Source: Candidatus Saccharimonadota bacterium | GTDB taxonomy: Bacteria; Patescibacteriota; Gracilibacteria; BD1-5; UBA6164 | DNA: 32,000 nucleotides | Direction: 5' to 3' | NCBI GenBank assembly: GCA_004563595.2 | Contig: CP042461.1 | Location: 360,001 to 392,000 of the forward strand | Shown here: positions 5,291 to 32,000 of the stretch, one piece after another | How the letters are laid out: the number at the start of each line of letters is the position of its first letter | Position numbering within the stretch: position 1 is the first letter of the stretch | Notes under the pieces: model-generated | What the model was told of the DNA's origin: nothing | The model's input: the letters and a program-made list of their open reading frames with translations, nothing else | Database searches by the model: none | Program-made: the position numbers and the translations under genes

Positions 5291-5291
5291 T

Positions 5292-14912: not shown

Positions 14913-16019
14913 TTGCCTACAAAAGTTAACACAAAAGCCCGTATTAATAGACATTTAAGAATTTTCAAAGACGATATATGAATTTCTAAGAAAAATAAAA
15001 AGACGAATCAATCATATACTTTTATACTTTTTGTAATTCTATTACTAACACCTATTTATCCTAGCTTTGCTTCATTTATTCATAATAATAATCAGTTTAA
15101 TTTTGATAGGGGAGATATAGATGAACAATCAATTATCTGATCATATTATTGAGACAATGAAGAAGAAGATGAAGATACGCCTATTTTGGAATCATCGGAT
15201 TCATTTCTATCAGTAAATACTATACTTGATGATGAGAGAGATCTATCATGAACAAATGAGATATTAGATTATGAAGTAAAGCCATGAGAATCATTTTATT
15301 CTATAGCTTATAAGTTTAAAGTTTCAACAAATTCAATTTATTGGGCAAATAATTTTTCTAAGAATCATACTCTTCAACCAGGTGATATATTAAAAATACC
15401 ACCAGTATCAGGATTAATTCATCAAGTTAAAAAATGAGAGACACTCTCAGCTATTGCTAAAAAATATGATGTAGATGAAGATAAGATAAAAAGTCAGAAC
15501 CTTCTTTCTATCTGAGAAACTCTACAAGCTTGAGAAGTTCTTGTGATTCCTGGAGCGATTAAAAAATCTCCAAAACCTATATACAAAAAACCAACGAGCT
15601 ATGCAAAAACATCAGCAAAATCATGATACAAATTTGCGCAAGCTGCGAAGAGTCAATATACAACTAATAAAGGTTCTTACAATTTGATATGGCACAAACC
15701 TCAATCATGAGCTGCTTGAAATTGTACGTGGTATGTAGCATCTTATAAAAAGGTAAATTGGAGATGAAACGCAAATAGATGGATGGCAAATGCGAGAGCA
15801 AAATGACATGCAACTTGAAGTGCACCAAAAGTTTGAGCAATCGTACAGTTTACAGGGAGATGATACAATCCAAGATATGGTCATGTGGCTATTGTAATGG
15901 ACTTAAAGGATGATTATATGATAGTAAGTGATATGAACTACAGAAGGTTATACGAAGTGACTTACCGTAAAGTACCAGTAAATGATAGATCAATAGATTG
16001 ATATATTTATATAGACTAA
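14913..16019 (+). CDS. Secreted peptidoglycan hydrolase: 2x LysM + C-terminal CHAP/NlpC-P60-type amidase/peptidase, 368 aa
   Basis: The frame opens after TAA 14901 and there is no in-frame ATG near the 5' end, so TTG 14913 is the proposed start. TM/signal FILFVILLLTPIYPSFA. LysM 1: YEVKPGESFYSIAYKFKVSTNSIYWANNF...LQPGDILKIP. LysM 2: HQVKKGETLSAIAKKYDVDEDKIKSQN...LQAGEVLVIP. CHAP-like: GNCTWYVASY...GAIVQF...YGHVAIVM. TAA 16017-16019. Confidence 0.85.
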
Positions 16020-16047
16020 AAAATAGAACGAAAGTTCTATTTTTTTA
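16018..16047 (+). terminator. Rho-independent terminator
   Basis: aaaaatagaac gaaa gttctattttttt. Confidence 0.7.
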
Positions 16048-16107
16048 TTCTCTAATAATAATAATAAATATTTTACATATTGAGAGTAGAAGGTCAAGCT
16101 ATAGTTC

Positions 16108-16136
16108 TTGCGTCTAAAAATTAGTTATGATAAAAT
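16108..16136 (+). promoter_or_regulatory. Candidate promoter for giant surface protein gene (TTGCGT-N17-TAAAAT, TG extended -10)
   Basis: ttgcgt 16108-16113, 17-nt spacer ending in ...tga, taaaat 16131-16136. It lies 30 nt upstream of ATG 16167. Confidence 0.4.
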
Positions 16137-16166
16137 TACAGTAATTATATTATTAATACTTACGAA

Positions 16167-19100
16167 ATGAAGAACACTGTAAACAAATATCTCATTTGAG
16201 CAATTTTACTCTTGAGTTTCACTTTTACATCTGTTAATGCAGAGTGTAATGAATGAGTAGACGGTTGTCTATCTGGTTGGAACCATACATCAAATACTGG
16301 TTCTATTTGGAATAATTGGACATGGTTTAATCCAATGTCAGAATTTGGATGAGTTGGTTTTATGATAAATGAAGATAATCCACTTTGGAGTGGTCCTGCA
16401 TTTAATTGGGCAAATGGATGAAGAATTAGGTCTTTTAGTAAAGGAGCGAATGATGGAGCAGCTGTTACAGCTGCGATAGATCCAGATAATAGAGCACCAA
16501 CTACTACGGTGTGAAGTTCTTTTAAAGTAGTTGATCTACCAGAATCCACAAGTAATGGTGCATCTTGGTGGATGTGGTATGATAGAATATGAATGGCCGC
16601 GAGAGGTCTTACCAATGCAAATACTGATAGAATGAGTTTTTATATAAAAACTGAGGATATGGAACCTCTATCAACACCAACGGGGATTAATATATGGGGA
16701 TATCATGTGGGGACATATTTATGTTGGGATGAAGGGTGTAATGGTGGATGAAGTGGATGAGAAGGTCCAGGGAATCAACATTATTATCACTATCTTGGAC
16801 TGAATCCATGAGCATGGATTCATGTAGAGTTAGATCAACATCCACAACATAGAAGGGATTGAAGCGGACCTGTTTTAGGGAACAATCCATCGTTTATAGA
16901 ATCAGGGAAGAATTATTTTGAAAATATGTCTCGTTTTTACATGGAGATTAGGTCAGCTCAAACTGACACAACTACGATGCATATTGATGAAATGGAGTAT
17001 TATTCGACTCAAGACAGTGTAGAACCAAATCAAAATGATGAATCAGTTACTTCTGTTTGGGTAGGGAATTGGAGAGCAGATGATTATTGGGAGATAGGTT
17101 TTGCTGATAATTCGTTTGGTGAGGATAGTATGAATTGAGACACTTGGTCTACTTTTGAAATAAAGTGGTCAACAAGTCCGATTACAAATGCAAACTATGA
17201 TTCAGCAACACTTATAGAACCAATGTTTTACACAGGAGACCAATATACAGATAAGGGCGTATGAGCAATTCGTAGATCTGATTCTTGGGAAAGAGGAGTA
17301 TGGACACGTTTTGAATTACCAGATTCAGTTGAAATAGAGTGAAATAAATTGTATTTTGCTATAAAAGATATATCTATTATATGAACATGAGCTGGTAATG
17401 ATTACCCTTGGAATAAAAATGATCTTTATACTGCACCAACTGATAATATTAGAATTATTGATTATGTTGTAGGTCCAATTGTTGTTAACCCACTTGAGAT
17501 GACAACAACAGAAGTACCAACAGCAATTTTAAATTCATCATATTCAGAACAAATAAGTATTAAATGATGAGTAGCACCACACATATTTTCAACAACATCA
17601 TCACTTCCAGCAGGTGTAACTCTCTCAAATGCAGGTCTTCTTTCAGGAACACCAACTGAGTTAGGGATATTTAATATTGAAGTAATAGTTGATGACTCTA
17701 ATAGTCCATCAACTCAAATTACAAAGAGTTTTACACTGATGGTGAACCCACCGGAAGTATGTAATGATGGAATAGATAATGATGGAAATGGGAAGATAGA
17801 CTGTGCAGATTATGCCTGTACAGATTGATGTAGTCAATTACTGGTAGACTTTTGAAATAGTGCAATAAATGATACCTTTAGTATTTCAGGTTGGAATACA
17901 GTTTTTAAAGATACTTATACTGGTTATTATAACCAATGAATGACGAATACAGCTGGAACGAATAAAGATTATAACTATCAATGAGTTTCTGGTTCATCAA
18001 TGGAATTTGCAGAATGAGATAGAGTTTTACTCACATGGTATAATAATACGAGTTCTCAGATTACATTTACTCCAAGAATAAGTTTTGATGACAATGATAG
18101 ACCTGTTTCAGGAGTTGCAGGAACATGGTACTCAACAACTCAGTGAGTAATAGAAGCTTGATCATATGGTGTAACAGAGTATGAAGTAACATCAGCAAGT
18201 GCAGGAAATTACACACTTGTAAATACAAATGTGAATTATGAACATAATACAGAACTAATCTTAGATAAGATATCGCTTATTGATGCATGAGCGACTGGAG
18301 GGTGAACAGGGACAGGGGCAACAGATATAACAGCTCCAGTATTATCAAATGGATTTCCAAGTGGAGAACAAATATCAGGAACAACAAATACAACATTAAG
18401 TATATCTACCGATGAGAATGCCTTTTGTAAATATTCAACTGTTGTAAATACAACATATGGATCAATGATAAATAGTTTTTCTACAACATGAGCTCAATCA
18501 CATACAGTAAGTGTATGAGGACTTACAGATGGTGTATCGTATACATATTATGTAAGATGTATTGATGGAGATTCAAATGAAAATACAAATGATTACATCA
18601 TTAGCTTTTCAGTATCGGAAGCTTGAACCCCTACAACTTCTACAGGATTGATACATAATTATCAATTTGATGAAAACACTTGAACGGTTCTTTGAGATGG
18701 TTTTGGTGGACAATGAACTATATCAAATGGTTCTTGGAAAACTGGTCTTATAAATTCTGCAGTAGATTTTGATAATACAACTATTTCATTATGAAATATG
18801 GATGTAACATGAAATGGACTTACTATTTCAGCTTGGGTAAATCCAGATACTTTTGCAATTCATGATGCAAGAATCATTTCAAAAACATCAAGCCCATCTG
18901 AAGCTGACCATTATTGGATGATGAGTACACAAGGTGAAAGTGGAAGATATTATCCTCGTTTTCGTTTAAAATCTGATCAAGAAACAGTAACACTTGTATG
19001 ATATAATGTAGAACTTCAAGCATGAATATGGCAACAGATTACTGTGACATACGATCAGGCAACAATGAAGATCTATGTAAACGGTGTTGAAGCTGGATCA

Positions 19101-22100
19101 TCAACAGCTGCAAACTGACCAGTTGCAACAAATGCTACCATAGAAGCTACCATTTGAGCGAATCCAGATGGATCACGTAATTTTGATGGATCAATTGATG
19201 AATTAAAGATATATGATGAAGCTCTGAGTGCAGTAGATGTACTCACTGATTATAATGATGATATAGCTACTTCATGATATACTCCAGGTACAGGAGGTGG
19301 AAGTGGAGGTACAGGAACGGGAGGTACAGGAGGAGGATGAACAATAGAGTGACCAAATAATCCACTTGCTTGAATTTCAGATCTTAAATATACAGGAGCC
19401 TTTATTATTCCTACATGAACATATGGTGTAGCAGGTACTCCATATTCTGAGGGAAAAATTGCATATAATCCTGATAACCATTCTTTGTTTCTTTCTACAG
19501 TAGATTCAAATAACCCTGATACAGATTTTACTGTTCCAGATTCAGTGTTATGAGAATTTTCTATTCCAAATATCAGTATGAGTGAAGATAGGCTTGACCT
19601 GAGTCCAGCTGTAAATATTCAAGGATTTATTGATTTGTATGATGATGCACCAGCATCAAGTTTAGAGCGTATTTCATGAATGTATTATAAAAATGGTGAA
19701 CTATTTGTAAATGGTTTAGTCTTTTATGATGCAAGTGCAAATGGAACAGATACTTCACTTGTTATTCGTGATGCAAATGCAATGGGATCTTCTCAAATTG
19801 ATGGTATCTTTAAAATGGAGTGAGCCGCAAGAGCGGCATGATGGATTTCTGATATCCCATCTGACTGGCAAACTCCATTTGGAGCGACACAAATATCAGG
19901 GAATGCAAGTAATTTAGCGATTGATAGTCGTAATAGTATGGGGCCAAGTGCTTTTACCTTTGATATAGATACTATCATTGGAAATAACTCTCCAGCTACT
20001 ACGATAGCAACTACTACTATCATGAATTACCCATTAAATGAGTATGGTGCAGAGAGTCATGCTATGTATCCTCAAGATAAATTTCCAAACCTTACTCCAA
20101 ATCAATGGATAGGATGGGAATGAGATAATTATGAAAGTGTAGATTATAATAACATAGATTGGGATAATGATGGTACTTTTGATCATGATAATGATCTATG
20201 GACTTCAAATTCTCATGCTGATTATGGATTTATAATTCCATGAACAAATACCTATGCTGTTTTCTGATCTACAGGAGGTGCAGAAAGTGGTATATGATAT
20301 AAAGTAAAAGAAGAAGATAGAATAAATGTTACACCTGGGAGTTGAAACTGTGCATGACCATGTACTTTTGATGGGAATGATACAAGTAATTTCTATTGGT
20401 TCTTTGATGTAGATGATATGATAGCTGTAAAGAGTGGTGTTATGCAAGCTCATGAAGTAAGACCATATAGTTATTGAGAAATGGTGGTTCCATTTGAAAG
20501 AAGAAATGGTTCACTTCATACGATAAAGTGAGGGAGTTATGATGCTACAACACAAACTTTATATTTATCACTTTCTAAGTATTTAGATCCAAATCCACCT
20601 ACTATTGTTACCTACAATGTTGACCTTTCAAACAATGAAAATAATACAGGAACTGGAACAACTACAGGAACAGGAACATCGGATACAACATCTCCATTTC
20701 TTTCAAATGGGACTCCGAGTGGAGAACAGGTATCAGGAACAACAAATGTAACTTTGAGTGTTTCAACAAATGAAAATGCATTTTGTAAATATTCAACAAC
20801 TTCAAACATAGCATATGGATCAATGACAAACAGTTTTTCTACTACATGAGGTCAGTCACATACTATAAGTGTATGAGGATTCACAGATGGTAATTCATAT
20901 AGATACTATGTAAGATGTATTGATTGATCACTCAATGAAAATGCTTCAGATTATGTAATTAATTTTTCAATAGCAGAACCTTCAAGTGCTGCTGTTCCAC
21001 CGGAAAATAATGTCTGCTTACCTTTAGCAGCCCCGAGTCAAAGTGATACAATCATTAATGTAGTGCCATCTCAAGCTCTTCAATTAAGAGATATTATAAT
21101 GTGAGCACAATCTGACACTACTATCTATCTTGCTGATGGAACATATAATGTGGGAAGTAATTTCCGTTTAGAGTTTACTAATCCAAGAGTTACTGTGAGG
21201 TCTCTTTCTTGAAATAGAGATGCGGTAATTGTTGATGGATGATATAATCAATCATGAGCTGCTGAGATATTTTATGTAAATATTCCAAATATTACTATTG
21301 CGGATATTACGATTCAAAAAGCTTATTATCATCCTATTCATGTAACTTGAAATGGTGATAATGCAAACATATATAATGTAAAAATTATAGATGGTGCGGA
21401 ACAATTTATCAAGATTAACCCTGAAGGAACGAATTACCCAGATAATGGGAGAATTAGTTGTTCATATTTTGAATTGACTGATGCATGAAGTACTCATACA
21501 AGGAATGGATGTTATACTGGGGGAATAGATGCTCACTCTGCACAATGATGGTTTGTTAAAAACAATACTTTTAAAGATATCTATTGTCGTGATAATAGTG
21601 GTATAGCTGAACACGCCGTTCACTTTTGGTCACAAAGTAGAGATACTCATGTTGAATGAAACCTCATGATAAATAATGCTCGTGGTATATGATTTGGTCT
21701 CTGAGCAACTCCTACTACTTGAATAAGGTATTATGCTGATCAACCATTACTTGGAACTTCTTTAACAGAAGCTGATGTACAACATATTGGTTGAGTTATT
21801 CAAAATAATATAGTTTATTGAGATAATTGATCATACTTTGATACTGGTATTTGAGTAGAAAAAGCTCATAATCCAAAAATTTATAATAATACTGTATATA
21901 CAAATAATAATGGGAGTCTTCCACTAGATGCACGTTTTACATCAACAACAGCAGAATTTATAAATAATATTTATTATCCAAATTATTTTTCTATACGTGA
22001 TGGTGCAACGGTAAATGCTTCAAATAATATAAGTGTGTGATCTACGGCCTTTGTAGATATTGCAAACCTTGATTTTAATCTTGTTACAGCTTCAGCCCCA

Positions 22101-25100
22101 ATTAACGCTGGTATTGATGTTGGTATTTCAAACGATTTCATTGGGTTCATAAGAGATGCACAACCAGATATTTGAGCTTTAGAATTTAATTCAGGTGGAG
22201 GATGATGAGATATTACAGCTCCAGTATTATCAAACTGAGCTCCAAGTTGAGAACAATCATCAGGAACAACGAATACAATATTAAGTATATCAACAGATGA
22301 GAACGCATTCTGTAAATATTCTACAACTGCAAATACGACATATGGATCAATGATAAATATATTTGCAACAACATGATTACAATGACATAGTGTGAGTATA
22401 TGAGGACTTTCAGATGGAGTATCATATGACTACTATGTTAGGTGTATAGATTGAAGTGGGAACGAAAATACTTCTGATTATACGATTAGTTTTTCAGTAG
22501 CATCTGGCATTCCAAGTTCAGACCCTACTACAAATCCACTTGCACATATAGGAGACTTTGAATACGTATGATGATTTACTTTTGGTTCAACATCATGAGT
22601 ATCAGACCTAAGTTATACCTCAGGGAAATTTGCTGTAAATCCTGCTTCAAATTCGGTTTTCATAGCCAGTCATACAAATCAAGATGCCTTATGAGAATTT
22701 AGTATTCCTGCGTTATCACTTGATTCAGATTATAATAATCTAAACAATGCAACACAAATACAGGACTTTGATTATGTACGTAATAGAGTATTAAATCCTG
22801 AAGCGCATGACGAATTATGATGAATGGCTGTAATTGGCAATAGTTTGTTATTTCATAGCTATACATATTACGATGCAGGTGGAACTAATGTTTGAACAAC
22901 ATCAGTAGTAAAAAATCTATCAGATCTAAAAAATTCTGTAATAGATGGAATATTTCCACTTGCATGAAGGGCTCATTTAATAAGTTGGGCATCATTGATA
23001 CCAACAGAATGGCAAACACTATTATGATGAGATTATATATCATGATCATCAAGCTCAATACCTATTAATTCGAGATCTAGTATGTGACCAAGTGCGTTTG
23101 CATTTCAATCAGATGATCTTTTGAATGCAACCGATACAAATGTAACTATACCGACTACTAAATTATTAGATTTTGGTTTAAGTAATGTATTAGCAAAGAC
23201 ACCTTCAGGGTGGGCAGAATATTGAGACTGGGATCTATATAATGCAAATGGAGATAATGATTTATGGACGGAAGATTCTTGAGCAGAATATGGATTTATA
23301 ATTCCATGAACCAGAACCTATGCAACGATCTGAATGTCATGAATGCATGAAAGTGGAGGATGATACAAGATTACTCAATCAGGTGCAACAGAAGCATGTT
23401 GATGACCATGTGCCTATGATCCACTTGATATGTATAACTATATATGGTTATGGGATGTAAATGATTTCTTAGATGTAAAAAATGGATTAAAACAATCATA
23501 CGAAGTAAAACCATACCAATATGGAAAATTTAATACTCCATTTGAATATAGACTCAATGGAACAAGAAAAAACTTAATTGCTGGTTGATCATATGATGAT
23601 GTATCAAACACATTGTATTTGAATTTAAACAGAGCAGATGGAGAGAATCATGCTGCTTGACCAGTAATCCTTGCCTACAAGATAAATGCGGTAGTAGATA
23701 CTACAGCAGCTATACTTTCAAACGGAACTCCAACTGGAGAACAAGCCTGAGGAACAACGAATGTAAATCTGGCACTTGATACTGATGAGAATGCAACATG
23801 TAAATATTCTACCGTTGCAAATACAGTATTCACAAGTATGACAAATACATTTACTACGACGTGAAATACATCACATTCTACAAATGTAACATGATTAACA
23901 GATGGGAATTCATATACATATTATGTAAGATGTATAGATGGGTATTTGAATGAAAACACAATAGATTACACACTCAATTTTTCAGTAGCGAACACTCCAG
24001 ACACAACAGCACCGATTCTTTCGAACGGAACCCCAAGTGGAGAACAAGCCTCAGGAACAAGTAACGTGAATCTGATACTCGATACCGATGAAAATGCAAC
24101 ATGTAGATACTCTCCAAATGCAAACACATCATATTGAGCAATGTGAAATACATTTACAACCACAGGGAATACAACACATACTACAAAAATTACATGACTG
24201 ACAGACGGAACATCACATACGTATTATGTAAGATGTATGGATGGAAATTCTAATGCAACAATAACAGATTACACACTGAACTTCTCTGTAGCGAATACTC
24301 CAGACACATGAGCACCATTTTTAAGTAATGGACTTCCAAATGGAGAACAAGCTTCAGGAACAACAAATGTAAATCTAACATTAGATACGAATGAAGCATC
24401 AACATGTAAATACTCAACAGTAGTAAATACAACGTATTCATCAATGACAGATATATTTACAACAGGAACCTGAGGAATCACACATACAGCAAATATAACA
24501 TGACTTACAGATGGAACATCACACGCATACTATGTAAGATGTATGGACACTGATTCAAATGAAAATACAATAGACTATACAATTAACTTTTCAGTAGCCA
24601 CAGCAAGTACAAATAGCTGATGAAGTTCATCAGGCTGAAGTTCAAGCTGAGGTTGAGGAGGTTGATGATGAGGATGAGGAAGTTATATCCCAACCTGTAA
24701 AGACGAACAACTCACATGTAAACTGATTCCATGATCGACAACGACTTACAAATGGTATGTACAAGACGAAGTATCATGTAAATATGGGAAACTATGAAGT
24801 CTCTGTTGAGAAGAAGATGTAGTAGAGTTGAATAGTGGATGAACATGAACATGAAGTAGTACAGACAGTACATGATGATGAACATTGAAGAAATACCATT
24901 CAGAAATGACAATCCTTCAATTGATAGAGAAGAGAGTGGACAAAGTAATCGAACAAAAGAAGAAAGATAATGATGACAAAGTAATAGAATACAGAAATGC
25001 TTTTATCAAAGACGTAGAGAATTATATATTAGCCAGACAAGCGAAACAAAGTACAAGAGAACACAAAGTGAAGATACTCGCAACGTTCAAACTCTTTGCA

Positions 25101-25409
25101 AAAGAGTTGAAGAAAGATAGGCTTGCTAAAACAAGTGAAAAGAAGAAATCTACCATAAAGAAATACATAGCTGTACACGAGGCAGTGTATACGCTTTGAG
25201 ATAGACTTGATAGCTTGATAATAAAGTACAATAAGGAGTCGAGTATAAAAGTGTTGTTTTTTAAGAATAAGTTGTTAAAAAGTATGGATTCATACATCAC
25301 AACAAAGAAGAACAAAGAAAAAGGGATAAATTACAAGATTAAATTAAAGATATTAAAAAGTAATATCGGAAAAACTTACAAAATATTCTTGAAAGGATTA
25401 AAGTCTTAA
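16167..25409 (+). CDS. Giant mosaic secreted surface protein, 3,080 aa
   Basis: I read every codon from ATG 16167 to TAA 25407-25409. There is no TAA/TAG in frame, and many TGA codons fall at Gly-like positions. Signal peptide MKNTVNKYLIGAILLLSFTFTSVNA. Domain order by eye: N-terminal ~430-aa domain; He_PIG-like Ig (LPAGVTLSNAGLLSGTPTELGIFNIEV); CNDGIDNDGNGKIDCADYAC motif; ~160-aa CBM-like domain; module R1; LamG/ConA-like domain (...NFDGSIDELKIYDEALSA); Gly linker; ~420-aa unknown domain A; R2; ~400-aa right-handed beta-helix-like domain; R3; domain A' (paralog of A); R4-R5-R6; Gly/Ser linker; small 4-Cys domain; ~175-aa Lys-rich tail. Confidence 0.85.
18330..18614 (+). repeat. 95-aa two-Cys beta-sandwich-like module, copy R1 (type A)
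   Basis: TAPVLSNGFPSGEQISGTTNTTLSISTDENAFCKYSTVVNTTYGSMINSFSTTGAQSHTVSVGGLTDGVSYTYYVRCIDGDSNENTNDYIISFSV. Confidence 0.85.
20688..20972 (+). repeat. 95-aa module, copy R2 (type A)
   Basis: TSPFLSNGTPSGEQVSGTTNVTLSVSTNENAFCKYSTTSNIAYGSMTNSFSTTGGQSHTISVGGFTDGNSYRYYVRCIDGSLNENASDYVINFSI. Same length and register as R1. Confidence 0.85.
22215..22499 (+). repeat. 95-aa module, copy R3 (type A)
   Basis: TAPVLSNGAPSGEQSSGTTNTILSISTDENAFCKYSTTANTTYGSMINIFATTGLQGHSVSIGGLSDGVSYDYYVRCIDGSGNENTSDYTISFSV. Long stretches are identical to R1 at the nucleotide level. Confidence 0.85.
23703..24596 (+). repeat. Tandem array of three modules (R4-R6, type B), exact 303-nt period
   Basis: Module starts are at 23703, 24006 and 24309. 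Each reads (T/G)A(A/P)xLSNGxPxGEQAxGTxNVNLxLDTxEx(A/S)TC(K/R)YS...TGLTDG(N/T)S(Y/H)xYYVRCxD...DYT(L/I)NFSV, joined by ANTPD(T) linkers. Confidence 0.9.
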
Positions 25410-25416
25410 TAATAAA

Positions 25417-25459: not shown

Positions 25460-25467
25460 GCAAAATT

Positions 25468-25495: not shown

Positions 25496-25496
25496 A

Positions 25497-25523
25497 TTAG
25501 CACTTGATTAATTTAAGTGCTAT
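25497..25523 (+). promoter_or_regulatory. CIRCE-like inverted repeat (putative HrcA operator) in front of htpG
   Basis: TTAGCACTT-gattaattt-AAGTGCTAT compared with the CIRCE consensus TTAGCACTC-N9-GAGTGCTAA: 8/9 and 7/9 arm matches with an exact 9-nt spacer. It starts 2 nt after the predicted -10 and ends 32 nt before the htpG ATG. Confidence 0.6.
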
Positions 25524-25554
25524 ATATTTAAGAATTTAAAATAAAAATAATAAC

Positions 25555-27447
25555 ATGACAAAACATAATTTTGAAGCAGAAACTTGAAAAGTATTAGAGC
25601 TTTTAACGCATTCGATTTACTCAAACAAAGAAATATTTTTAAGGGAATTGATTTCTAATTCTGCTGATGCGATTGATAAAGCAAGAATAAAATCATTAAC
25701 TGATACAACATTTTTAGGGGATGACAGTAAATTTGAAATTAAAATAAGAGTAGACAAAGAAAAAAATCTATTAATCATTGAGGATAATGGTATATGAATG
25801 ACAGCAGATGAACTTCATAAATGTATCTGAACAATTGCAAAATCATGAACATCAGAGTTTGTAGAAAAATTGAAAAAAGCAAAAGAGAATGCTGATAATA
25901 ATCTAATCTGACAATTTTGAGTCGGGTTTTATAGTGCTTTTATGGTGGCAGATAAAGTAGAATTAGAAACAAAATCTCCACTTGATGCAAAATCTCATAA
26001 ATGGATTTCAGATTGAAAATCAGAATATGAAGTAATTACATCAGAAAAAGAATCAAGAGGAACTATAGTAAAGTTATTTATTGATGAAGCAAATAAAGAA
26101 TTATTAGAAGAATGGAAGGTGAAAGAGCTCGTAAAAAAGTATTCAAACTACGTATGAGTACCAATTTTGATGGATATTGAAGAAAAAGATGATTCTGGAA
26201 AAGTAACGTGAACGAAACAAACGCAAATAAATGAGACAAAATCAATATGGACAAAGAGTAAATCAGAAATAAAAAAAGAAGAATATAATTCTTTTTACAA
26301 AACGACCTCAATGGATTTTAATGACCCATTGACTCACTTACATAATAATGTTGAAGGAGCTGTTAGCTATAAGTCATTGTTATATATCCCTTGTGAAACA
26401 AATATGTTTGCTGATATACGTGATCCTAATAAAGAATATTGACCAAAATTATATGTAAAAAATGTTCTTATTTTAGAAAATTCAAAAGAACTCCTTCCTG
26501 TGTGGCTTAGGTTTATATCAGGTGTAGTCGAAACTTCTGATATACCTTTAAATGTGAGCAGAGAAATGCTTCAATCAAACACAGTGTTAGATAAAATAAA
26601 AAAAGGTCTTACAAAAAAAGTAATTTCAGGAATGAAAAAATCACTTGAAAATGATACTGAAAATTATAATAAATTCTTGGAGAATTTCTGACAAGTATTA
26701 AAAGAATGAATATATTATGAATGAGATTTAAAAGAAGAAATCGCAGGAGTGGTAAAATTCAAAAGCTTACTACAAGGTAAAAATATTACTTTAGATGCAT
26801 ATTTAGAAGCTTGTAAAAGTACAGAAAAAAAAGAAATATATTATATAGTTTGAAAGAGCGAAGCAGAGGTTTTATCAAGTCCATATTTAGCACAATTTAG
26901 AGAAACTTCAACAGATGTTATACTATTTACTGACCCTATAGATGCATTTATAGTTCAAGCATTTACTGAATATAAATGACATAAGTTAAAGTCAATAACT
27001 GCAGGTGATATTCAATTAAAAGAAGAATCACAAGAAGAAAAAGAGAAAACGGAAAACACTAAAAAAGATTTTAAAGATTTCTTAGAACTCACAAAAAATA
27101 CTATTGGTTCTGATATACTTGAAAAAGTAGAATTAAATGAGAATTTGTGAGATGCGCTTTGAGCTCTAAAAACCCCAACAAATTGAGTGAATCCTCAAAT
27201 GGAAAAAATGATGAAATCAATGTGACAGGAAGTGCCAGTTCAAAAGAGAATTTTAGAATTGAATCCAAACAATGGATTAGTAAAAATAATGAAACAAGAA
27301 TTTCAAAATAATATAAAATCTGATAAATTACAAGAGATGATGAGTTATGCTTATGATCAAGCTATCCTTTTAGAAGGTTGAGAACTTGAAAATATGTGAG
27401 AATTTATTAAAAAAGTAAATAAATTCGCAGGGAATTATTTAAAATAG
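25555..27447 (+). CDS. htpG: Molecular chaperone HtpG (Hsp90), 630 aa
   Basis: [53 protein letters not shown] and [19 protein letters not shown] are all present, with conserved glycines written as TGA. TAG 27445-27447. Confidence 0.95.
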
Positions 27448-27474
27448 AAATTTAAAATATTTGATTTATGTTAT

Positions 27475-27510
27475 AAAAAATAAAAATACACCCTGTATTT
27501 TTATTTTTTA
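27475..27510 (+). terminator. Rho-independent terminator after htpG
   Basis: aaaaaataaaaataca ccc tgtatttttatttttt. Confidence 0.65.
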
Positions 27511-27521
27511 TTGCTCTAAAT

Positions 27522-27550
27522 TTGATTTATTTTTTTATATATAGTAAAAT
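27522..27550 (+). promoter_or_regulatory. Candidate promoter for pilin-FReD / giant-2 operon (TTGATT-N17-TAAAAT)
   Basis: ttgatt 27522-27527, 17-nt spacer, taaaat 27545-27550. It lies 38 nt upstream of ATG 27589. Confidence 0.4.
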
Positions 27551-27588
27551 CAAATATGTAATATATATATATATTAAAAAAGAGTCAC

Positions 27589-28914
27589 ATGAGAAAGCAA
27601 AATATAAATGGGCTTACATTTGTAGAGTTAATTGTTGTTATGGTAGTTGTGGCTATACTTTGAACAATGTGAATAGTTACATTTCAGTGATATTCGAAAG
27701 ATACAAGAGATACTGCTAGAGTAAGTGACTTAGAGCAAATTGATCAAGGTTTAGAGCTATATTTTGCAACTGAGTGAGATGTACCACTTCCAGAAAATAG
27801 TATAGAGATTACAGCTACTGGGAAAATAGTACAGTACCAATGAGATATACCAGATATTACTCTCTCCCTTATTTGATTTCAATGAAAAGGAGTAGATCCC
27901 AAAGATTGAACTCATTATGTATATACATCAGATGGGAAAAATTTTCAATTAATGTGACTTCTTGAGCAGGATAATTGAAATACGGCTATTTGAAAAAGGT
28001 ATCCTTTTTTTAAAGGATGAAAGCTAGGAATATTTATTGACAATACTACAGGTGAATCAATCCATGAAATATGAACAGGTATTGATTTAATTAGTACTAG
28101 TACAGTGTATAAGGTTTATGATAGTAATAATAAAAATGATTATTTTACTTGATCATCAGATACCTTATCAAGAAAGTTATCATATAGAATCAATGGAACT
28201 GCAAACTGTAAGGAAATATTAGAAAAGTGAGTAACAACTTTAGATGGAACATACACTACTGCTATAAGAGATGATGTCCCCATATCCGAGGTATACTGTG
28301 ATATGACTACTGATTGAGGTTGATGGACAGCTGTTGTAATGCTTGCAGATAACACGACTGTAAATATGTTTAAAACATGAACATCATGACTGGTCCCCTC
28401 TGTTACAGAAGATATATCGACTACTTGAGACCTAGGTTACTTTTGGGTTGATGATGAAAATAAAGATATATTGATGCGTTGATGGTCAAGTATGGGGGAG
28501 ATTGAAGACATATACAATTCTTGATCAGTGATTTATAATTTCATGAAAAGAGATTTAGAAAATTTAACACAACAGAAAAAACAAAATGATGCAACAGGGA
28601 AAGGAGAGAGATTTTCCAGCATTCCACTTACTCTGAAGTATATCAATAATTGACAGGAATTCCAAAGTTATACATACTGGTGAGAATCTGCATGAAGTAA
28701 AAATTCACATTATATTATGATTTCTGAACACGTATATTTTATAGATTTGTTTAAATGAAATGGCTACAATAACTGATGTCATAATGATGCTGAAACAGGA
28801 ACGGGGACAGTGTCATCAGATTTCTATGATTATATACAAACAGGACCTAGTCTAAATGAGCCATGTGCTTTGTATTTTAACTCACAAAACTACATGGTCG
28901 TATTCTTAAGATAA
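27589..28914 (+). CDS. Type IV pilin fused to a fibrinogen-related (FReD-like) globular domain, 441 aa
   Basis: ATG 27589 to TAA 28912-28914, every line checked in frame. The N-terminus MRKQNINGLTFVELIVVMVVVAILGTMGIVTFQGY is a prepilin motif. From about aa 205 the sequence reads NCKEILEKGVTTLDGTYTTAIRDDVPISEVYCDMTTDGGGWTAVVML, the hallmark CxEIxxxG...G.Y.I...VYCDMxTDGGGWT motif of fibrinogen C-terminal domains. Two of the three GGG glycines are TGA. Confidence 0.8.
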
Positions 28915-28943
28915 ACTTACTCACTATTATTAAAATTAAAAAA

Positions 28944-31900
28944 ATGTATAAAAAAAATAAAACACTTATAAAAAAAATATTTACTCTCTGACTTATTTTT
29001 TGATCAACTCTCTCAATAGTAGATGCAAGCATGATAGCAGATTATGATAATGGCTGGATAGAAAATGCGGCTGAAAGTCGTCTTGAAGACTCTTCAAGTA
29101 CAGTTTGGACTACTCTAGATACTGGTCATGGTAATCAGAATATGAGCATAGATCCTTCAGGGTGAGTGAGTTGAGCTGCAGCTAAAGTTGATGTAGTTAG
29201 TTACTGAAGTGATGGTCTATTTAAGATATATTTTGCCTATGATGAAGATAGATATACTACGCTAGATGCACCAGATGGGACAAACAGAATGGTCTTATAT
29301 ACTACTATTCCATACTCAGGTGATGGAAATGAACACACGTTTCATATTGGTACCTATTCTAAAGACCCTGCAACGGCAGCTTCGACATCAAATGTAGGGA
29401 ATCACTGGTATCATTACTATGAGTTAAGAGGGAATGATAAAAATTATTGGACGAAAATGTATATGGATACACGTCCTCAGCATGTGGTAGGTGATTCCGA
29501 AAATGCGCCAGAAACGAACCCTACAGCCACTGACGGGTTTAACTACTTTGATGGACTTACAAGGTTATATATACAGATGAGATATTCTCCGTTTGAATCT
29601 AACTGGCCCGGACCGTATACTATGTTTGTAGATGAAATAGAATTTTATGATGAAACAAGAGTAGAAAATGATTATAGTATCAACAGTGTTGCTATAACTT
29701 ATTTTGGTTCTTGAGAATTTGATATAGATTGGAGTTCATTTAGTCCATATGATATTCATAGTGAGACTTTTGAAGTAAGATATTCGCTAAACCCAATAGA
29801 CACAATAGATGACTATTTAGCCTCATCAATTGTACCCGGAAGTCCAGCATGAGGACGGGGGCAAGAAAATATAGGCCATCATGACAATCATTATAGAGCA
29901 AATTTTCAAATTTCTGGTATTGATGAAACAAAGAAGTATTATTTTGCAATTAGAGATTTATATGCGTCTCATCCACAAGATTTAAAAAGAGTTGATTATG
30001 AAGTATTGAATGCTCCAGCACCCATGTATTTAGGTTTCTCATCAAGTAATTTGCTCAACGGTGAAAAAGATTTGTTTTACGCATTTCAACTTGAATGAAA
30101 ATGAGGAAAATCACCATATACATATTCCACTACATCTCAACTTCCTGCATGACTCATGCTTACAAGTGGGTGACTTATATCAGGTATACCTACAGAGTGA
30201 GGAACTTTTAATTTAGATATTACTATCCAAGATTCAGATTCTCCACAGACAAGTGTCCAAAAAACTTTTGTTCTTTATATTAGCGTACCAGAAATTTGTA
30301 CCGATGGAATTGATAATGATGGAAATTGATCAATAGATTGTAATGATCCAATCTGTGTTGGAAATGCTGCATGTGAAGGTTCTGGAGGAGTGTCACTTAT
30401 TAATTTTGGTGATAGTGCAGCAAATAACGTTTTTGGTTTAAGTGGTTGGGATACTGTATTTTTAGATAATTATACAGGCTATTATAATCAATGATCAACC
30501 ATTGTGACAGGTAATAATTCGAATTACAATTACCAAGGGCTGAGTGGTACCTCAAGAACTTTTATAGAAGATGATAAGGTTTTTGCTACTTGGTATAATG
30601 ATGGTCTTTCAAGTATGACCTTTACTCCGTTGGTAAGTTTTACAGACCCTGATAGAAAATGATCAGGAGCTATTCCTACGGGATGGTATGAAATGTCTGA
30701 AGTGACAATTCCTGCTCAGAATTATGGAATTTCAGAGTTTGTTTTTGATACTTCAAATATTTGAGACTATAGTCTTGTAAATGTGAATGTAAATGAGGAT
30801 AATAGTAGCATATTGCTTCTTGATCAAATTTGACTTATTCCAACAGGATCAGTACCAACAGATACAACTGCTCCAGTATTATCAAATGGAGTTCCAAGTT
30901 GAGTCCTTTGATCAGGGACAACAAACACAACGCTCAGTATATCTACAAATGAGAACGCATTTTGTAAATATTCTACAACTGCAAGCACAGTATATGGATC
31001 AATGATAAATACATTTGCTACGACATGATCACAGTCGCATAGTATGAGTATATGAGGACTTATTGATGGAACATCATATACATACTATGTAAAATGTATT
31101 GATTGAGATTCTAATGAAAATACATCAGACTATATAATAAATTTTTCAGTGGCTAATGCTTGAGACATTATAGCTCCTGTACTATCAAATGGAACTCCTA
31201 TAGGAGAACAGGTATGAGGAACAATAAATGTAATTTTAGGGGTTGATACGGATGAAAATTCGACTTGTAAATACTCAACAGTAGTAAATACAGCGTATCC
31301 ATCAATGACAGATACATTTACAACCACATGAAATACAAATCATACAACAAATATTACATGACTTACAGATGGAGCATCATATACATATTATGTAAAATGT
31401 ATAGATGGATCAAGTAATGAAAATATATCAGATTATATAATTAATTTTTCAGTAGCGAATGCTTGAGATACCACAGCTCCTGTGCTATCAAATGGAGCCC
31501 CAGTTTGAGTTCAATCTTCTGGAACAACAAACGTGAATGTGGCATTGACTACGGATGAAAATGCAACATGTAAATATTCAACAGTAGTAAATACAACGTA
31601 TGCATCAATGACAGATACATTTACTACGACATCAAATATAGCTCATAGCACAAATATTACATGACTTACAGATGGAGCATCATATACATATTATGTAAGA
31701 TGTATAGATGGATTAAGTAATGAAAATACATCAGATTATGCTATTAGTTTTTCAGTAGCAATTGAATCTTCAGGTTCGTACTCTGCTATGCTTTCAACAT
31801 TTGAAGTATGATGAAATGAAATATATACATGACCAAGTGCTGATCAAGTAACACGTGTACAAGACAATTATAAATGGATTCCATATCAGTGAGGAAGTTC

Positions 31901-32000
31901 ATATGCACCTACACGGGGATATCTTGAAATAGATGATACAACTGGTGCGAAGTGAAGTAGTGGAAGTTTGAAATATGTTTCAACATGAGGAAGATCTAAT
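28944..32000 (+). CDS. Second giant mosaic surface protein, paralog of 16167-25409 (3' end outside the window; >1,018 aa)
   Basis: ATG 28944 lies 30 nt after the pilin stop with no terminator between. The frame was checked to 32000 with no TAA/TAG. Signal MYKKNKTLIKKIFTLGLIFGSTLSIVDA. The N-terminal architecture matches giant 1: N-domain (HIGTY...HWYHYYEL...MFVDEIEFYDE), He_PIG-like Ig (LPAGLMLTSGGLISGIPTEGGTFNLDI), CTDGIDNDGNGSIDCNDPIC, a CBM-like domain, then three 95-aa modules. Confidence 0.85.
30867..31757 (+). repeat. Tandem array of three 95-aa modules in giant 2 (one type A then two type B), exact 303-nt period
   Basis: Module starts are at 30867, 31170 and 31473. The first copy (TAPVLSNGVPSGVLGSGTTNTTLSISTNENAFCKYSTTASTVYGSMINTFATTG...) is close to R1/R3 of giant 1. 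Copies 2 and 3 resemble R4-R6. Confidence 0.9.

What the first reader, a model, noticed from the sequence alone, without database searches (positions are those of the whole stretch)
14913..32000. 17-kb cell-surface attack/attachment island: PG hydrolase, two paralogous giant mosaic proteins and a lectin-tipped pilin
More than half of the window encodes exported, adhesin-like or envelope-degrading products. These are a LysM-LysM-CHAP hydrolase, a 3,080-aa mosaic giant, a pilin carrying a fibrinogen-like head, and a second giant that starts 30 nt after that pilin with no terminator between them, so the two are probably co-transcribed. A further T4P block (3249-8625) encodes the ATPase and two more pilins. 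Known code-25 lineages are small-genome episymbionts or predators. My inference is that this is a host-cell recognition and attachment toolkit in which pili present lectin domains and the giants provide multivalent carbohydrate binding plus an embedded beta-helix enzyme. The specific pairing of a FReD-pilin with a giant mosaic protein is not something I recognise as described.
Basis: inference. Interest (0 to 1): 0.85.

Follow-up and report, generated by a model that had tools for sequence, protein, structure and literature searches.

The report
Gracilibacterial surface-protein genes, not an island
This stretch of a published marine Gracilibacteria genome really does encode a wall hydrolase, two huge sugar-binding-type surface proteins and a pilus subunit with a fibrinogen-like lectin head, but the genes are not a conserved unit and each belongs to an already recognised kind.

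Summary
The genes are real. UGA must be read as glycine (code 25). The window matches the closed genome of Candidatus Gracilibacteria bacterium 28_42_T64 (Sieber 2019).

Present are:
- a membrane-anchored LysM-LysM-CHAP hydrolase
- a 3,080-aa secreted mosaic protein
- a modular type IV pilin with a fibrinogen-related (FReD/GGGWT) head
- a second mosaic giant that starts 29 nt after the pilin's stop codon.

It also missed tRNA-Gln and rplU, which lie directly upstream.

Two close relatives keep htpG next to the pilin-FReD gene. One has no giant on either side. The other lacks giant 1, and its contig ends 157 nt after the pilin. About 40 Gracilibacteria, Peribacteria and related Patescibacteria loci carrying pilin-FReD genes have no giant-type gene within 10 kb. 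They usually show tandem arrays of modular pilins instead.

The pilin-fibrinogen architecture is already catalogued (Raynaud 2021, Dataset S1; NCBIfam NF040941).

The giants combine LamG, Ig-like and FN3-like repeats and a right-handed beta-helix with two widespread families that lack a Pfam model. One is a CBM-like two-sandwich head. The other is a beta-propeller.

The most likely role is glycan recognition and adhesion to other cells. Verdict: a new member of a known kind, of modest interest.

The parts
14289..14363 (+). tRNA-Gln (UUG). A housekeeping flank, not part of any surface module.
   Evidence: ARAGORN; Rfam RF00005, 69.5 bits
14479..14790 (+). rplU (ribosomal protein bL21), directly upstream of the hydrolase gene.
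   Evidence: Translation MLAVIELGGNQFTVKV(G)DVIDV.... Identified from the sequence motif and my own knowledge; not run against Pfam.
14913..16019 (+). Membrane-anchored peptidoglycan hydrolase. TTG start, N-terminal TM segment (about 15012-15080), LysM (15264-15401), LysM (15420-15551), CHAP (15705-15938).
   Evidence: Pfam LysM 85.4 bits in 2 stretches and CHAP 60.3 bits. Hydrophobic window at residues 34-56. Catalytic Cys and His motifs visible.
16167..25409 (+). Giant 1, 3,080 aa. Signal peptide (16167-16241). Head made of a CBM-like jelly-roll plus an FN3/Ig-like sandwich (16242-17516). He_PIG Ig (about 17529-17801). Cys-rich CxDGIDNDGNGxIDC motif (17760-17819). Six FN3-like 101-aa repeats starting at 18333, 20691, 22218, 23706, 24009 and 24312. 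LamG (18777-19241). Beta-propeller X1 (19338-20666). Right-handed beta-helix (21000-22202). Beta-propeller X2 (22506-23696). Gly/Cys linker (24612-24881). Lys-rich helical tail (24882-25406).
   Evidence: N-domain model of proxy P0032: pLDDT 84, Foldseek hits to CBM11/CBM30/CBM4 and Endo-A sandwiches. X-domain model of proxy P0162: pLDDT 86, generic beta-propellers. Beta-helix through P0171 and P0180, which carry PF13229. Tail is 44% identical to the C-terminus of P0032.
25498..25522 (+). Terminator-like hairpin between giant 1 and htpG.
25555..27447 (+). htpG (Hsp90 chaperone). A housekeeping gene that interrupts the proposed island. Its adjacency to the pilin-FReD gene is the only conserved synteny found.
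   Evidence: Pfam HSP90 351 bits. 87% identical orthologues lie directly upstream of pilin-FReD in L001 and L091.
27589..28914 (+). Modular type IV pilin, 441 aa. Class III signal and alpha1 helix (27589-27693), pilin module (to about 28038), linker, then a fibrinogen-related (FReD/GGGWT) head (about 28189-28911).
   Evidence: Pfam Fibrinogen_C above cutoff; N_methyl 19.9, below cutoff. NF040941 49.9 bits. The family profile hits intelectin/XEEL at E 4e-14, ficolin over the whole FReD at E 1e-10, and PilA/geopilin. 100% identical to NCBI A9Q91_01915.
28944..32000 (+). Giant 2, truncated by the window end with 1,019 aa visible. Signal peptide, divergent N-domain (29028-30158), Ig, Cys-rich motif (30297-30356), CBM-like region, and three FN3-like repeats starting at 30870, 31173 and 31476.
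   Evidence: 41% identity over 687 aa to giant 1. Its N-domain is only 27% identical to giant 1's. Repeats.
3249..8625 (.). Separate T4P block outside the finding. PilB/GspE-type ATPase (3249-4586, +). 185-aa pilin (5329-5886, -). Secreted fn3/Big_5 protein with a C-terminal TM (5990-6946, +). 516-aa modular pilin whose N-terminal 150 aa are 36% identical to the pilin-FReD and whose C-terminal domain weakly resembles FISUMP (7075-8625, +).
   Evidence: T2SSE 407 bits and fn3 36 bits. Pilin and FISUMP hits, the latter sub-threshold. Pilin paralogy.

Best explanation
The region is a run of independently evolving cell-surface genes in a Gracilibacterium (genetic code 25). They are interleaved with housekeeping genes (tRNA-Gln, rplU, htpG). 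It is not a dedicated island or a conserved operon.

Shown:
1. A membrane-anchored LysM-LysM-CHAP enzyme. It binds peptidoglycan through LysM and cleaves it with a Cys/His CHAP domain.
2. Two paralogous Sec-exported mosaic proteins. Their roughly 700-aa head (CBM-like jelly-roll, FN3/Ig-like sandwich, He_PIG Ig, Cys-rich motif and a further region of unassigned fold) is a module also found in other bacteria. There it ends in a TM anchor, a dockerin, a T9SS, SLH or cadherin tail.
3. Giant 1 extends this head with FN3-like spacers, LamG, two beta-propellers and a right-handed beta-helix. It ends in a Lys-rich helical tail shared with another Gracilibacteria protein.
4. A modular type IV pilin whose pilin module carries a fibrinogen-related lectin-type head.

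Inferred mechanism:
- The prepilin peptidase processes the pilin, and the PilB-driven machinery polymerises it into the pilus.
- The FReD head is then exposed, probably at the tip. It binds a glycan epitope (acetylated or diol-bearing sugars, by analogy with ficolins and intelectins) on another cell.
- The giants are held at the cell surface by their basic tail. They provide multivalent glycan binding and possibly local glycan depolymerisation through the propeller and beta-helix pair.
- The CHAP enzyme either remodels the cell's own wall or helps breach a partner's wall.

The 29-nt spacing between the pilin gene and giant 2 is specific to this genome. It may still give co-transcription.
For: - Code 25 and gene models.
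- Source genome: (100% identical to A9Q91_01915 on the 1,343,103-bp contig).
- Domain calls: 5, 9, 32, 64.
- Giants paralogous.
- The head module is shared with P0031 (TM-anchored, standard-code organism) and P0034 (dockerin).
- The N-domain family is widespread: 180 word-index hits and 847 cluster representatives. Its model is two beta-sandwiches resembling CBM11/CBM30/CBM4/CBM16, TM 0.5-0.6 normalised by target length.
- The X-domain family occurs as stand-alone secreted proteins with T9SS tails and as X+beta-helix or X-LamG-beta-helix fusions. Its model is a beta-propeller.
- The C-terminal tail is homologous to the tail of P0032.
- FReD homology to ficolin and intelectin.
- Lack of synteny.
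- Housekeeping interruptions.
- Native composition (GC3 0.17, many in-frame TGA).
- Separate transcription signals after giant 1 and after htpG.
- Literature precedent for T4P plus giant surface proteins plus secreted PG hydrolases in code-25 CPR bacteria: PMC8080830, PMC6851277.
Against: - No expression, localisation or binding data exist for any of these proteins.
- Fold matches are generic: TM at most 0.6 for the CBM-like domain and at most 0.46 for the propeller. They cannot separate binding from catalysis.
- The strongly conserved His/Glu/Tyr/Arg cluster in the N-domain (EGPGNQHYYHY...HPQH.R) could mark an enzyme rather than a lectin.
- The surface-anchor role of the Lys-rich tail rests only on its position and composition. 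A search for more copies found none.
- Synteny was examined in only two close relatives (L001, L091). L091 ends 157 nt after the pilin, so a downstream giant there cannot be excluded.
- The FReD ligand-site residues were not examined.
Confidence: 0.6

Rival explanations
1. The FReD-pilin and giant 2 form a co-transcribed functional unit. The giant would be a pilus-associated adhesin or cargo, in the way PilY1/PilC or CofJ works with minor pilins. The whole 17 kb would be a dedicated host-attack and attachment island.
For: - Same strand, 29-nt AT-rich spacer, and no terminator-like site between the pilin stop and the giant 2 start.
- Giant genes preceded by T2SS/T4P-like loci and class III signal-peptide genes are described in Omnitrophota (bioRxiv 10.1101/2023.11.21.568195).
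- The pilin and the giants both carry glycan-binding-type folds.
Against: - The pair is absent from the closest relative with readable flanks. In L001 the genes downstream of the pilin are on the minus strand and unrelated.
- None of about 40 pilin-FReD loci has any N, X, BH or R-repeat ORF within 10 kb.
- N-domain proteins in other code-25 and standard-code genomes have no pilin neighbour.
- htpG, rplU and a tRNA interrupt or flank the region.
- No PilY1-type domain was detected in the visible part of the giants.
Confidence: 0.15
2. The giants are mainly secreted polysaccharide-degrading enzymes rather than adhesins. They would be capsule, EPS or algal-glycan depolymerases built from a beta-helix, beta-propellers and a catalytic jelly-roll. 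They would be used to strip a partner's glycan coat or to free substrates.
For: - X-domain and X+beta-helix proteins occur in marine polysaccharide degraders with T9SS sorting tails, such as Zobellia galactanivorans, Maribacter, Saprospiraceae and Alteromonas.
- One X+beta-helix homologue carries CBM_4_9.
- The N-domain has about 50 near-invariant polar and aromatic residues, including a His/Tyr/Gln/Arg cluster. Jelly-roll lyases and hydrolases use such residues (my own knowledge).
- Foldseek also lists GH12, Cip1 and other jelly-roll enzymes.
- A PL14 lyase gene lies near the N-domain gene in another Gracilibacterium.
Against: - No match to any CAZy-type catalytic Pfam family.
- The best fold matches are non-catalytic CBMs.
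- Long FN3-like spacer arrays and LamG/Ig modules are typical of adhesins.
Confidence: 0.2
3. The giants were recently acquired by horizontal transfer, for example from the suspected Colwellia host. The region would then be a foreign genomic island inserted next to tRNA-Gln.
For: - The giant 1 N-domain is 48-50% identical to Colwellia, Thalassotalea and Pseudoalteromonas proteins. That is closer than to its own paralogue in giant 2, at 27%.
- A tRNA gene lies about 550 nt upstream of the first gene.
- Overall GC is higher in the giants, 0.34 against 0.25-0.31.
- The TGA share of Gly codons is lower in the giants, 0.35-0.40 against 0.50-1.00 (mostly 0.53-0.76) in the other genes.
Against: - Giant 1 carries 133 in-frame TGA-Gly codons and giant 2 carries 35. 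GC3 is 0.17, identical to the housekeeping genes. This argues for long residence in a code-25 lineage.
- The closest N-domain relative is another code-25 Gracilibacterium protein, at 69%.
- Identities to many unrelated phyla are all 40-50%, so there is no specific Colwellia signal.
- There is no integrase, transposase or flanking direct repeat, and rplU lies between the tRNA and the first gene.
Confidence: 0.07
4. The LysM-LysM-CHAP protein is an ordinary autolysin for the cell's own division and wall turnover, not an attack enzyme.
For: - It has an N-terminal membrane anchor rather than a cleavable signal, which keeps it at its own envelope.
- It follows rplU in a housekeeping context.
- The organism makes its own peptidoglycan (PMC6851277).
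- LysM-CHAP autolysins are common in monoderm bacteria (my own knowledge).
Against: - Secreted PG hydrolases are proposed to degrade host walls in the related predator Vampirococcus (PMC8080830).
- An episymbiont's anchored enzyme could still reach a tightly apposed host wall.
Confidence: 0.5

Closest known systems
Modular type IV pilins (Streptococcus sanguinis PilB-vWA and PilC-lectin; Raynaud et al. 2021, PMC8179133)
   Same: An N-terminal class III signal and pilin module is fused through a linker to a bulky non-pilus ligand-binding module. The exact architecture IPR012902-IPR002181 (pilin plus fibrinogen C-terminal domain) is listed in their Dataset S1 with 8 proteins, plus 2 more that have an extra domain. 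The neighbouring pilin at 7075-8625 resembles their IPR012902-IPR011871 class (40 proteins), but its FISUMP hit is sub-threshold.
   Different: No FReD-pilin has been studied experimentally. Here the family is expanded into tandem arrays in Gracilibacteria and Peribacteria. The distal part of the FReD is very divergent.
Animal fibrinogen-related lectins (ficolins, intelectins/XEEL, tachylectin 5A) and the bacterial NCBIfam NF040941 'fibrinogen-like YCDxxxxGGGW' domain
   Same: The Cys...YCDMTTDGGGWT core is conserved. The family profile aligns over the whole ficolin FReD (E 1e-10) and matches intelectin/XEEL best (E 4e-14). NF040941 scores 49.9 bits against a cutoff of 30.
   Different: The single-sequence Pfam and PDB matches cover only the first 50-110 residues. 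The Ca2+ and ligand-site residues were not verified. The domain sits on a pilin rather than on a collagen or coiled-coil stalk.
Giant surface proteins of code-25 and other CPR or predatory bacteria (Vampirococcus lugosii, PMC8080830; Omnitrophota giant genes, bioRxiv 10.1101/2023.11.21.568195)
   Same: Very large exported mosaic proteins with adhesion-type domains, in a small-genome organism rich in type IV pili and PG hydrolases. In Omnitrophota the giant genes lie next to T2SS/T4P-like genes and class III signal-peptide genes.
   Different: The domain set differs: CBM-like N-domain, X propeller, beta-helix, LamG and FN3-like repeats. At 3,080 aa the size is modest. No TM anchor, SecA-like or protease domains were found. 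No conserved neighbouring secretion locus was found.
Multidomain secreted glycan-binding or glycan-degrading proteins of marine Bacteroidota and Alteromonadales (T9SS- or cadherin-tailed N-domain and X-domain proteins)
   Same: The same two domain families that lack a Pfam model, at 35-50% identity. X+beta-helix and X-LamG-beta-helix combinations recur.
   Different: Those proteins are mostly 450-950 aa with one or two modules and lineage-specific sorting tails. The Gracilibacteria giants concatenate all the modules and end in a Lys-rich helical tail.

Membership tests
Type IV pilin (class III signal peptide protein) | Short basic leader ending in Gly, Glu at +5, and a hydrophobic alpha1-N helix of about 20 residues | tested here: met
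   MRKQNING|LTFVELIVVMVVVAILGTMGIV is read directly from the sequence. The family profile hits geopilin, PpdD, PilA and PilE N-termini at E 1e-10 to 1e-5. The Pfam N_methyl score (19.9) and the TIGR02532 score (14.9) fall just below their cutoffs of 21.2 and 16.3.
Type IV pilin (class III signal peptide protein) | Processing by a prepilin peptidase and assembly by a PilB-type ATPase and platform | not testable with these tools
   A T2SSE ATPase lies at 3249-4586. PilD is reported elsewhere in the genome (PMC6851277). There is no experimental evidence.
Modular pilin (sensu Raynaud et al. 2021) | [quoted passage not shown] | tested here: met
   Pilin module at residues 1-150, FReD at about 201-441. 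The architecture is listed in their Dataset S1.
Fibrinogen-related domain (PF00147 / NF040941) | Sequence match above the curated threshold, including the Cys...YCDMxTxGGGWT core | tested here: met
   PF00147 scores 25.9-27.3 bits against a cutoff of 22, covering profile positions 4-50 only. NF040941 scores 49.9 bits against a cutoff of 30.
Fibrinogen-related domain (PF00147 / NF040941) | Full three-subdomain FReD fold (A, B, P) with a Ca2+ site and a ligand pocket | tested here: inconclusive
   The family profile aligns to ficolin-1 and ficolin-2 over chain residues 6-210. The distal half is very divergent: 20% identity among tandem paralogues.
LysM-CHAP peptidoglycan hydrolase | LysM repeats plus a CHAP domain with catalytic Cys and His | tested here: met
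   LysM 85.4 bits in 2 stretches; CHAP 60.3 bits over profile positions 5-81 of 81. The GNCTWY and GHVAIV motifs are present.
Right-handed parallel beta-helix (PF13229-type) | Direct match to beta-helix models or PDB sequences | tested here: not met
   No Pfam family at E<=1 and no PDB sequence at E<=10 for giant 1 residues 1612-2016. Only a sub-threshold choice_anchor_Q hit, 22.4 bits against a cutoff of 25.
Right-handed parallel beta-helix (PF13229-type) | Homology to proteins that do match the family | tested here: met
   Giant 1 residues 1612-2012 align to P0180 438-790 (E 6e-23) and P0171 513-718 (E 8e-24). Those regions contain PF13229 hits above cutoff. P0157 is named a right-handed parallel beta-helix protein by NCBI.
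Genomic island (mobile or foreign) | Integrase or transposase, flanking direct repeats, deviant codon composition, contiguous cargo | tested here: not met
   No mobility genes appear among the ORFs. The only direct repeats are the internal FN3-like units. GC3 is 0.17, the same as the housekeeping genes. htpG and rplU interrupt or flank the region. A tRNA-Gln is nearby.
Conserved pilin-giant gene pair or operon | Adjacency maintained in related genomes | tested here: not met
   In L001 and L091, htpG next to pilin-FReD is kept. L001 has no giant on either side. L091 has none upstream and ends 157 nt after the pilin. Zero of about 40 pilin-FReD loci have giant-type ORFs within 10 kb. N-domain genes in L006-L010 and L092 have no pilin neighbour.
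PilY1/PilC-type pilus-tip adhesin (considered for the giants) | C-terminal PilY1 beta-propeller domain (PF05567/IPR008707) | tested here: not met
   No such Pfam hit in giant 1, the visible part of giant 2, or the X-domain segment at E<=1. The X propeller has only generic fold matches.

The most novel reading that the evidence does not exclude
FReD-tipped pilins may form a diversified lectin repertoire that Gracilibacteria and Peribacteria use to recognise partner or prey cell-surface glycans. The genes are multi-copy, often sit in tandem arrays, and have a fast-diverging distal subdomain. This would reuse the fold that animal innate immunity (ficolins, intelectins) uses to recognise bacteria. 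The same bacterial GGGWT domain also turns up in giant proteins of other predators and episymbionts (Myxococcota, Bdellovibrio/Bacteriovoracaceae, DPANN archaea). In this particular genome one such pilin may have become transcriptionally coupled to a giant glycan-binding protein, so that both are deployed together.
Probability: 0.25. Interest if true: 0.55.

Novelty: new member of a known kind. Interest (0 to 1): 0.3.

Why it matters
Host recognition by uncultured CPR episymbionts is poorly understood. This locus supplies concrete candidates for testing in a published closed genome whose partner is suspected to be Colwellia: a lectin-headed pilin and two glycan-binding-type giants.

The practical gains are modest:
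1. The island and pair idea can be dropped.
2. FReD-pilins are shown to be a recurrent, multi-copy and variable family in Gracilibacteria and Peribacteria, rather than a one-off.
3. Two widespread extracellular domain families without Pfam models are pointed out. One is a CBM-like two-sandwich head with 847 cluster representatives. The other is a beta-propeller that often travels with a beta-helix. Both deserve family definitions and biochemical tests.

Tried and rejected
I used proxies P0032 and P0162 instead. As a result neither the pilin-FReD nor the beta-helix was modelled.
2. Direct Pfam and PDB-sequence searches of the N-domain, D2, the 'CBM' region, X1, the beta-helix and the C-terminal tail gave nothing usable.
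3. I tried to recover the rest of giant 2. P0001 is not in the encoding-contig index. The window's last 69 nt are absent from metagenome contigs. The source genome did not appear among the genome-contig hits.
4. A search for further copies of the Lys-rich C-terminal module in metagenome contigs matched 265 patterns, but none was confirmed.
5. Foldseek of the X-domain against viral structures gave only weak generic propeller and tail-fibre matches, TM at most 0.37. There is therefore no support for a phage receptor-binding-protein origin.
6. I considered whether the hypervariable PTD-repeat gene of Sieber et al. is one of these giants. It is not: 'PTD' occurs once in each.
7. I considered a mobile island at tRNA-Gln and recent transfer from Colwellia. 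Both were rejected on composition, TGA content and the lack of mobility genes.
8. The promoter scan is uninformative: 110 sites found against 111 expected.

Full report
**Observation**

The window has 30.6% GC. Under table 11 it has only two ORFs longer than 150 aa. With TGA read as sense it is almost fully coding. TGA falls on invariant glycines: Walker A GPTgSgKTT in the PilB-like ATPase and LSGgQRQR in the ABC transporter. The code-25 reading is therefore correct.

The pilin protein is 100% identical to NCBI A9Q91_01915. That protein belongs to Candidatus Gracilibacteria bacterium 28_42_T64 and lies on a 1,343,103-bp contig. This is the closed genome of Sieber et al. 2019 (PMC6851277). [quoted passage not shown] It does not describe this locus. 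Its hypervariable PTD-repeat gene is a different gene.

**Gene content from 14.2 kb to 32 kb**

- tRNA-Gln, 14289-14363.
- rplU, 14479-14790.
- LysM-LysM-CHAP, 14913-16019. It has a TTG start, an N-terminal TM segment and the catalytic Cys and His.
- Giant 1, 16167-25409, 3,080 aa, with the signal peptide ...SVNA|E.
- A terminator-like hairpin, 25498-25522.
- htpG, 25555-27447 (HSP90, 351 bits). An AT-rich hairpin with a T-run follows it.
- Pilin-FReD, 27589-28914.
- A 29-nt spacer without a terminator.
- Giant 2, from 28944 to past the window end.

**The pilin**

The N-terminus MRKQNING|LTFVELIVV... is a class III signal with Gly at -1 and Glu at +5. The first 150 aa are 36% identical to the other large pilin, at 7075-8625. 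The C-terminal part carries C...YCDMTTDGGGWT.

Pfam Fibrinogen_C scores above its cutoff, but only over profile positions 4-50. NCBIfam NF040941, 'fibrinogen-like YCDxxxxGGGW', scores 49.9 bits against a cutoff of 30.

A profile of 12 family members (A4) hits intelectin/XEEL at E 4e-14. It aligns with ficolin-1 and ficolin-2 across their whole FReD at E 1e-10. Its N-terminus hits geopilin, PilA and PpdD.

The protein is a modular type IV pilin in the sense of Raynaud et al. 2021 (PMC8179133). Their Dataset S1 already lists IPR012902-IPR002181 with 8 proteins, plus 2 that have an extra domain. It also lists IPR012902-IPR011871 (the FISUMP domain that the neighbouring pilin weakly resembles, at sub-threshold score) with 40 proteins. 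The architecture is therefore catalogued, although it has not been studied experimentally.

**The giants**

Giant 2 residues 133-766 align with giant 1 residues 179-843 at 41% identity (E 9e-137). Nine 303-nt FN3-like repeats are present, six in giant 1 and three in the visible part of giant 2. They are 61-78% identical at the DNA level.

Pfam recognises only Laminin_G_3 (93.7 bits), He_PIG and weak FN3-like signals. Three long stretches have no Pfam or PDB-sequence match.

1. *N-terminal domain, about 425 aa.* It belongs to a large family: 180 hits in the word-index search, and 847 cluster representatives at E<=1e-3 in the exhaustive search.
   - Members are mostly stand-alone secreted proteins of about 450 aa, or fusions with cadherin, dockerin, SLH, T9SS or PKD tails.
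   - They occur in Alteromonadales (Colwellia, Pseudoalteromonas, Thalassotalea), Omnitrophota, Scalindua, Desulfuromonas and others, at 40-50% identity.
   - The closest relatives are P0032 (69%, a code-25 Gracilibacterium), P0031 (62%; 1,047 aa with the same 700-aa head and a C-terminal TM anchor, in a standard-code organism) and P0033 (60%).
   - The AlphaFold model of P0032 (pLDDT 84, pTM 0.81) shows two beta-sandwiches followed by long helices.
   - Foldseek finds CBM11, CBM30, CBM4, CBM16 and the non-catalytic sandwiches of Endo-A and a GH50 agarase. TM is 0.5-0.6 normalised by target length, with 7-14% identity.
   - This is a CBM-like jelly-roll with no specific family assignment. A dense set of invariant His, Glu, Tyr and Arg residues leaves an enzymatic role open.

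2. *'X' domain, two copies: giant 1 residues 1058-1500 and 2114-2510.* It also belongs to a widespread family without a Pfam model.
   - Members include stand-alone proteins with T9SS tails (Zobellia, Maribacter, Saprospiraceae) and proteins from Alteromonas.
   - Also found are tandem X-X proteins, recurrent X+beta-helix or beta-helix+X fusions, and one X-LamG-beta-helix protein.
   - The model of P0162 (pLDDT 86, pTM 0.84) is a beta-propeller. It has only generic matches: WD40, N2O reductase, neuraminidase and the phage phi11 receptor-binding protein, all with TM at most 0.46. Against viral structures the matches are weak too.

3. *Residues 1612-2012.* This stretch has no direct hit. It aligns with P0180 and P0171 over regions that carry PF13229 Beta_helix above cutoff, and with an NCBI-named right-handed beta-helix protein. 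The beta-helix claim is supported indirectly. Enzyme activity is not shown.

The last 82 aa of giant 1 are 23% Lys and predicted helical. They are 44% identical (E 6e-18) to the C-terminus of P0032 and are partly duplicated within giant 1. This tail occupies the position where homologues in other lineages carry TM, dockerin, T9SS or SLH anchors. I infer that it retains the protein at the cell surface. This is inference only, and a search for further copies failed.

**Synteny test**

- The closest relative with a usable contig is L001 (pilin 72% identical, HtpG 87%). It keeps htpG next to pilin-FReD. Upstream it has RNase HII/QueH and a 233-aa gene. Downstream it has minus-strand genes that are unrelated to the giants.
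- L091 (pilin 65% identical, HtpG 87%) again has htpG directly upstream of the pilin and a 224-aa gene before that. Its contig ends 157 nt after the pilin.
- A more distant homologue, L002, is flanked by an antitoxin-like gene and uvrB.
- A scan of one genome per GTDB species found 362 relatives. I took the 80 best loci, translated them with TGA as sense, and compared every ORF of at least 100 aa with all window proteins and all giant 1 segments.
- About 40 Gracilibacteria, Peribacteria and related Patescibacteria loci carry a pilin-FReD gene. None has an ORF matching the N, X, beta-helix or R-repeat segments within 10 kb, and none has htpG.
- Instead these genes sit in tandem arrays of modular pilins: six in L023, four in L012, and three to four after a PilB gene in L029 and L030. 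Several copies occur per genome.
- Conversely, N-domain genes in L006-L010 and L092 have no pilin neighbour.

The pairing is therefore specific to this genome. Co-transcription remains possible but cannot be tested here.

**Is it an island?**

No mobility genes are present. The only direct repeats are the internal FN3-like units. GC3 of the giants is 0.17, the same as the housekeeping genes, and they contain 133 and 35 in-frame TGA-Gly codons. Their higher overall GC reflects amino-acid composition. The TGA share of Gly codons is lower in the giants (0.35-0.40) than in the other genes (0.50-1.00, mostly 0.53-0.76). I cannot explain this. Gly-rich GGN linkers may contribute.

**Mechanism**

The shown and inferred steps are separated in the Best explanation section. 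In brief, the pilin is processed and polymerised by the T4P machinery, whose ATPase lies at 3249-4586. It exposes an FReD lectin-type head. In tandem paralogues the distal FReD half is the most divergent part, at 20% identity against 40-43% for the FReD core and the pilin module. That pattern fits a variable ligand-binding surface.

The giants offer multivalent glycan binding through the CBM-like head, LamG and the propellers. The beta-helix and propeller pair may add depolymerase activity.

The CHAP enzyme may be an ordinary autolysin or a contact-dependent wall breacher. The data do not decide between these.

**Comparison with what is known, and novelty**

The general picture of T4P plus giant surface proteins plus PG hydrolases as a host-attachment toolkit in code-25 CPR bacteria is published for Vampirococcus (PMC8080830). 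It is sketched for this very genome. Giant genes next to T2SS/T4P-like genes are described in Omnitrophota. Modular pilins, including the fibrinogen type, are catalogued.

What is new here is descriptive:
- the domain anatomy of two particular giants
- two extracellular domain families without Pfam models
- a candidate Gracilibacteria tail module
- the finding that FReD-pilins form variable multi-copy arrays.

I rate it a new member of a known kind, with interest 0.3.

Noticed in passing
window 16242-17516 (giant 1 N-domain); proteins P0031-P0150 and P0225-P0363: A domain of about 425 aa with no Pfam model defines a widespread family of secreted proteins: 847 cluster representatives at E<=1e-3. 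It has a strongly conserved EGPGNQHYYHY...W.H..LD.HPQH.R cluster. Members in Colwellia, Thalassotalea and Pseudoalteromonas are 48-50% identical to giant 1. Colwellia is the suspected partner of this Gracilibacterium in Sieber 2019.
   Followed up: partly
window 19338-20666 and 22506-23696 (X1, X2); proteins P0151-P0224: A second family without a Pfam model, a beta-propeller of about 400 aa. It occurs stand-alone with T9SS tails in marine Bacteroidota, as tandem X-X proteins, and repeatedly fused to a right-handed beta-helix in either order. The recurrent fusion suggests a functional couple.
   Followed up: partly
window 24882-25406 (giant 1 C-terminal tail); P0032 residues 439-520: A Lys-rich (23% K) helical module of about 80 aa. 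It is duplicated in giant 1 and is 44% identical to the C-terminus of a stand-alone N-domain protein from another code-25 genome. It sits where other lineages have TM, dockerin, T9SS or SLH anchors, so it may be a Gracilibacteria surface-retention signal. A metagenome search for more copies found none.
   Followed up: partly
window 25555-28914; L001 5165-8511; L091 803-4154: The only conserved adjacency around the pilin-FReD gene is with the upstream htpG (Hsp90). It is kept in two relatives whose HtpG is 87% identical. I have no functional explanation for a chaperone-pilin pairing.
   Followed up: partly
L023 3557-11287; L012; L018; L020; L027; L029; L030: Pilin-FReD genes form tandem arrays in other Gracilibacteria and Peribacteria, up to six in a row. 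In L029 and L030 they lie directly downstream of a PilB ATPase gene. Within L023 the distal FReD half is only 20% identical on average, against 43% for the pilin module.
   Followed up: yes
L052-L090: The bacterial GGGWT/FReD core also occurs, without a pilin module, in large and giant proteins of Myxococcota, Bdellovibrio/Bacteriovoracaceae, Pseudoalteromonas and DPANN archaea (Nano-, Woese- and Micrarchaeia). The list is rich in predators and episymbionts, but it is biased by the search pattern used.
   Followed up: no
window 16167-25409 and 28944-32000 compared with all other genes: TGA encodes 35-40% of glycines in the giants but 50-100% (mostly 53-76%) in the other genes of the window, although GC3 is the same. 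This is unexplained. Gly-rich GGN linkers or a different evolutionary history are possible causes.
   Followed up: no
window 7075-8625: The second large pilin (516 aa) ends in a domain with the PCxxGYHVPTxxEW signature and a sub-threshold match to TIGR02145 FISUMP (15.7 bits, cutoff 41.65). Pilin-FISUMP is among the most frequent modular-pilin architectures in Raynaud 2021.
   Followed up: partly
window 5990-6946: A secreted fn3 + Big_5 protein with a signal peptide and a C-terminal TM anchor is wedged between the two pilin genes of the T4P block. It overlaps the divergent pilin gene's start region.
   Followed up: no
proteins P0002, P0003 and others in alignment A4: Public protein databases hold many Gracilibacteria proteins translated with code 4, giving W where Gly belongs (for example DGGWWT in place of DGGGWT). 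This depresses identities and can mislead conservation analyses.
   Followed up: no
L009 17241-18296: Another code-25 Gracilibacterium encodes a CBM_2 + polysaccharide lyase family 14 protein a few genes from its N-domain protein. This hints that some Gracilibacteria carry true glycan depolymerases.
   Followed up: no
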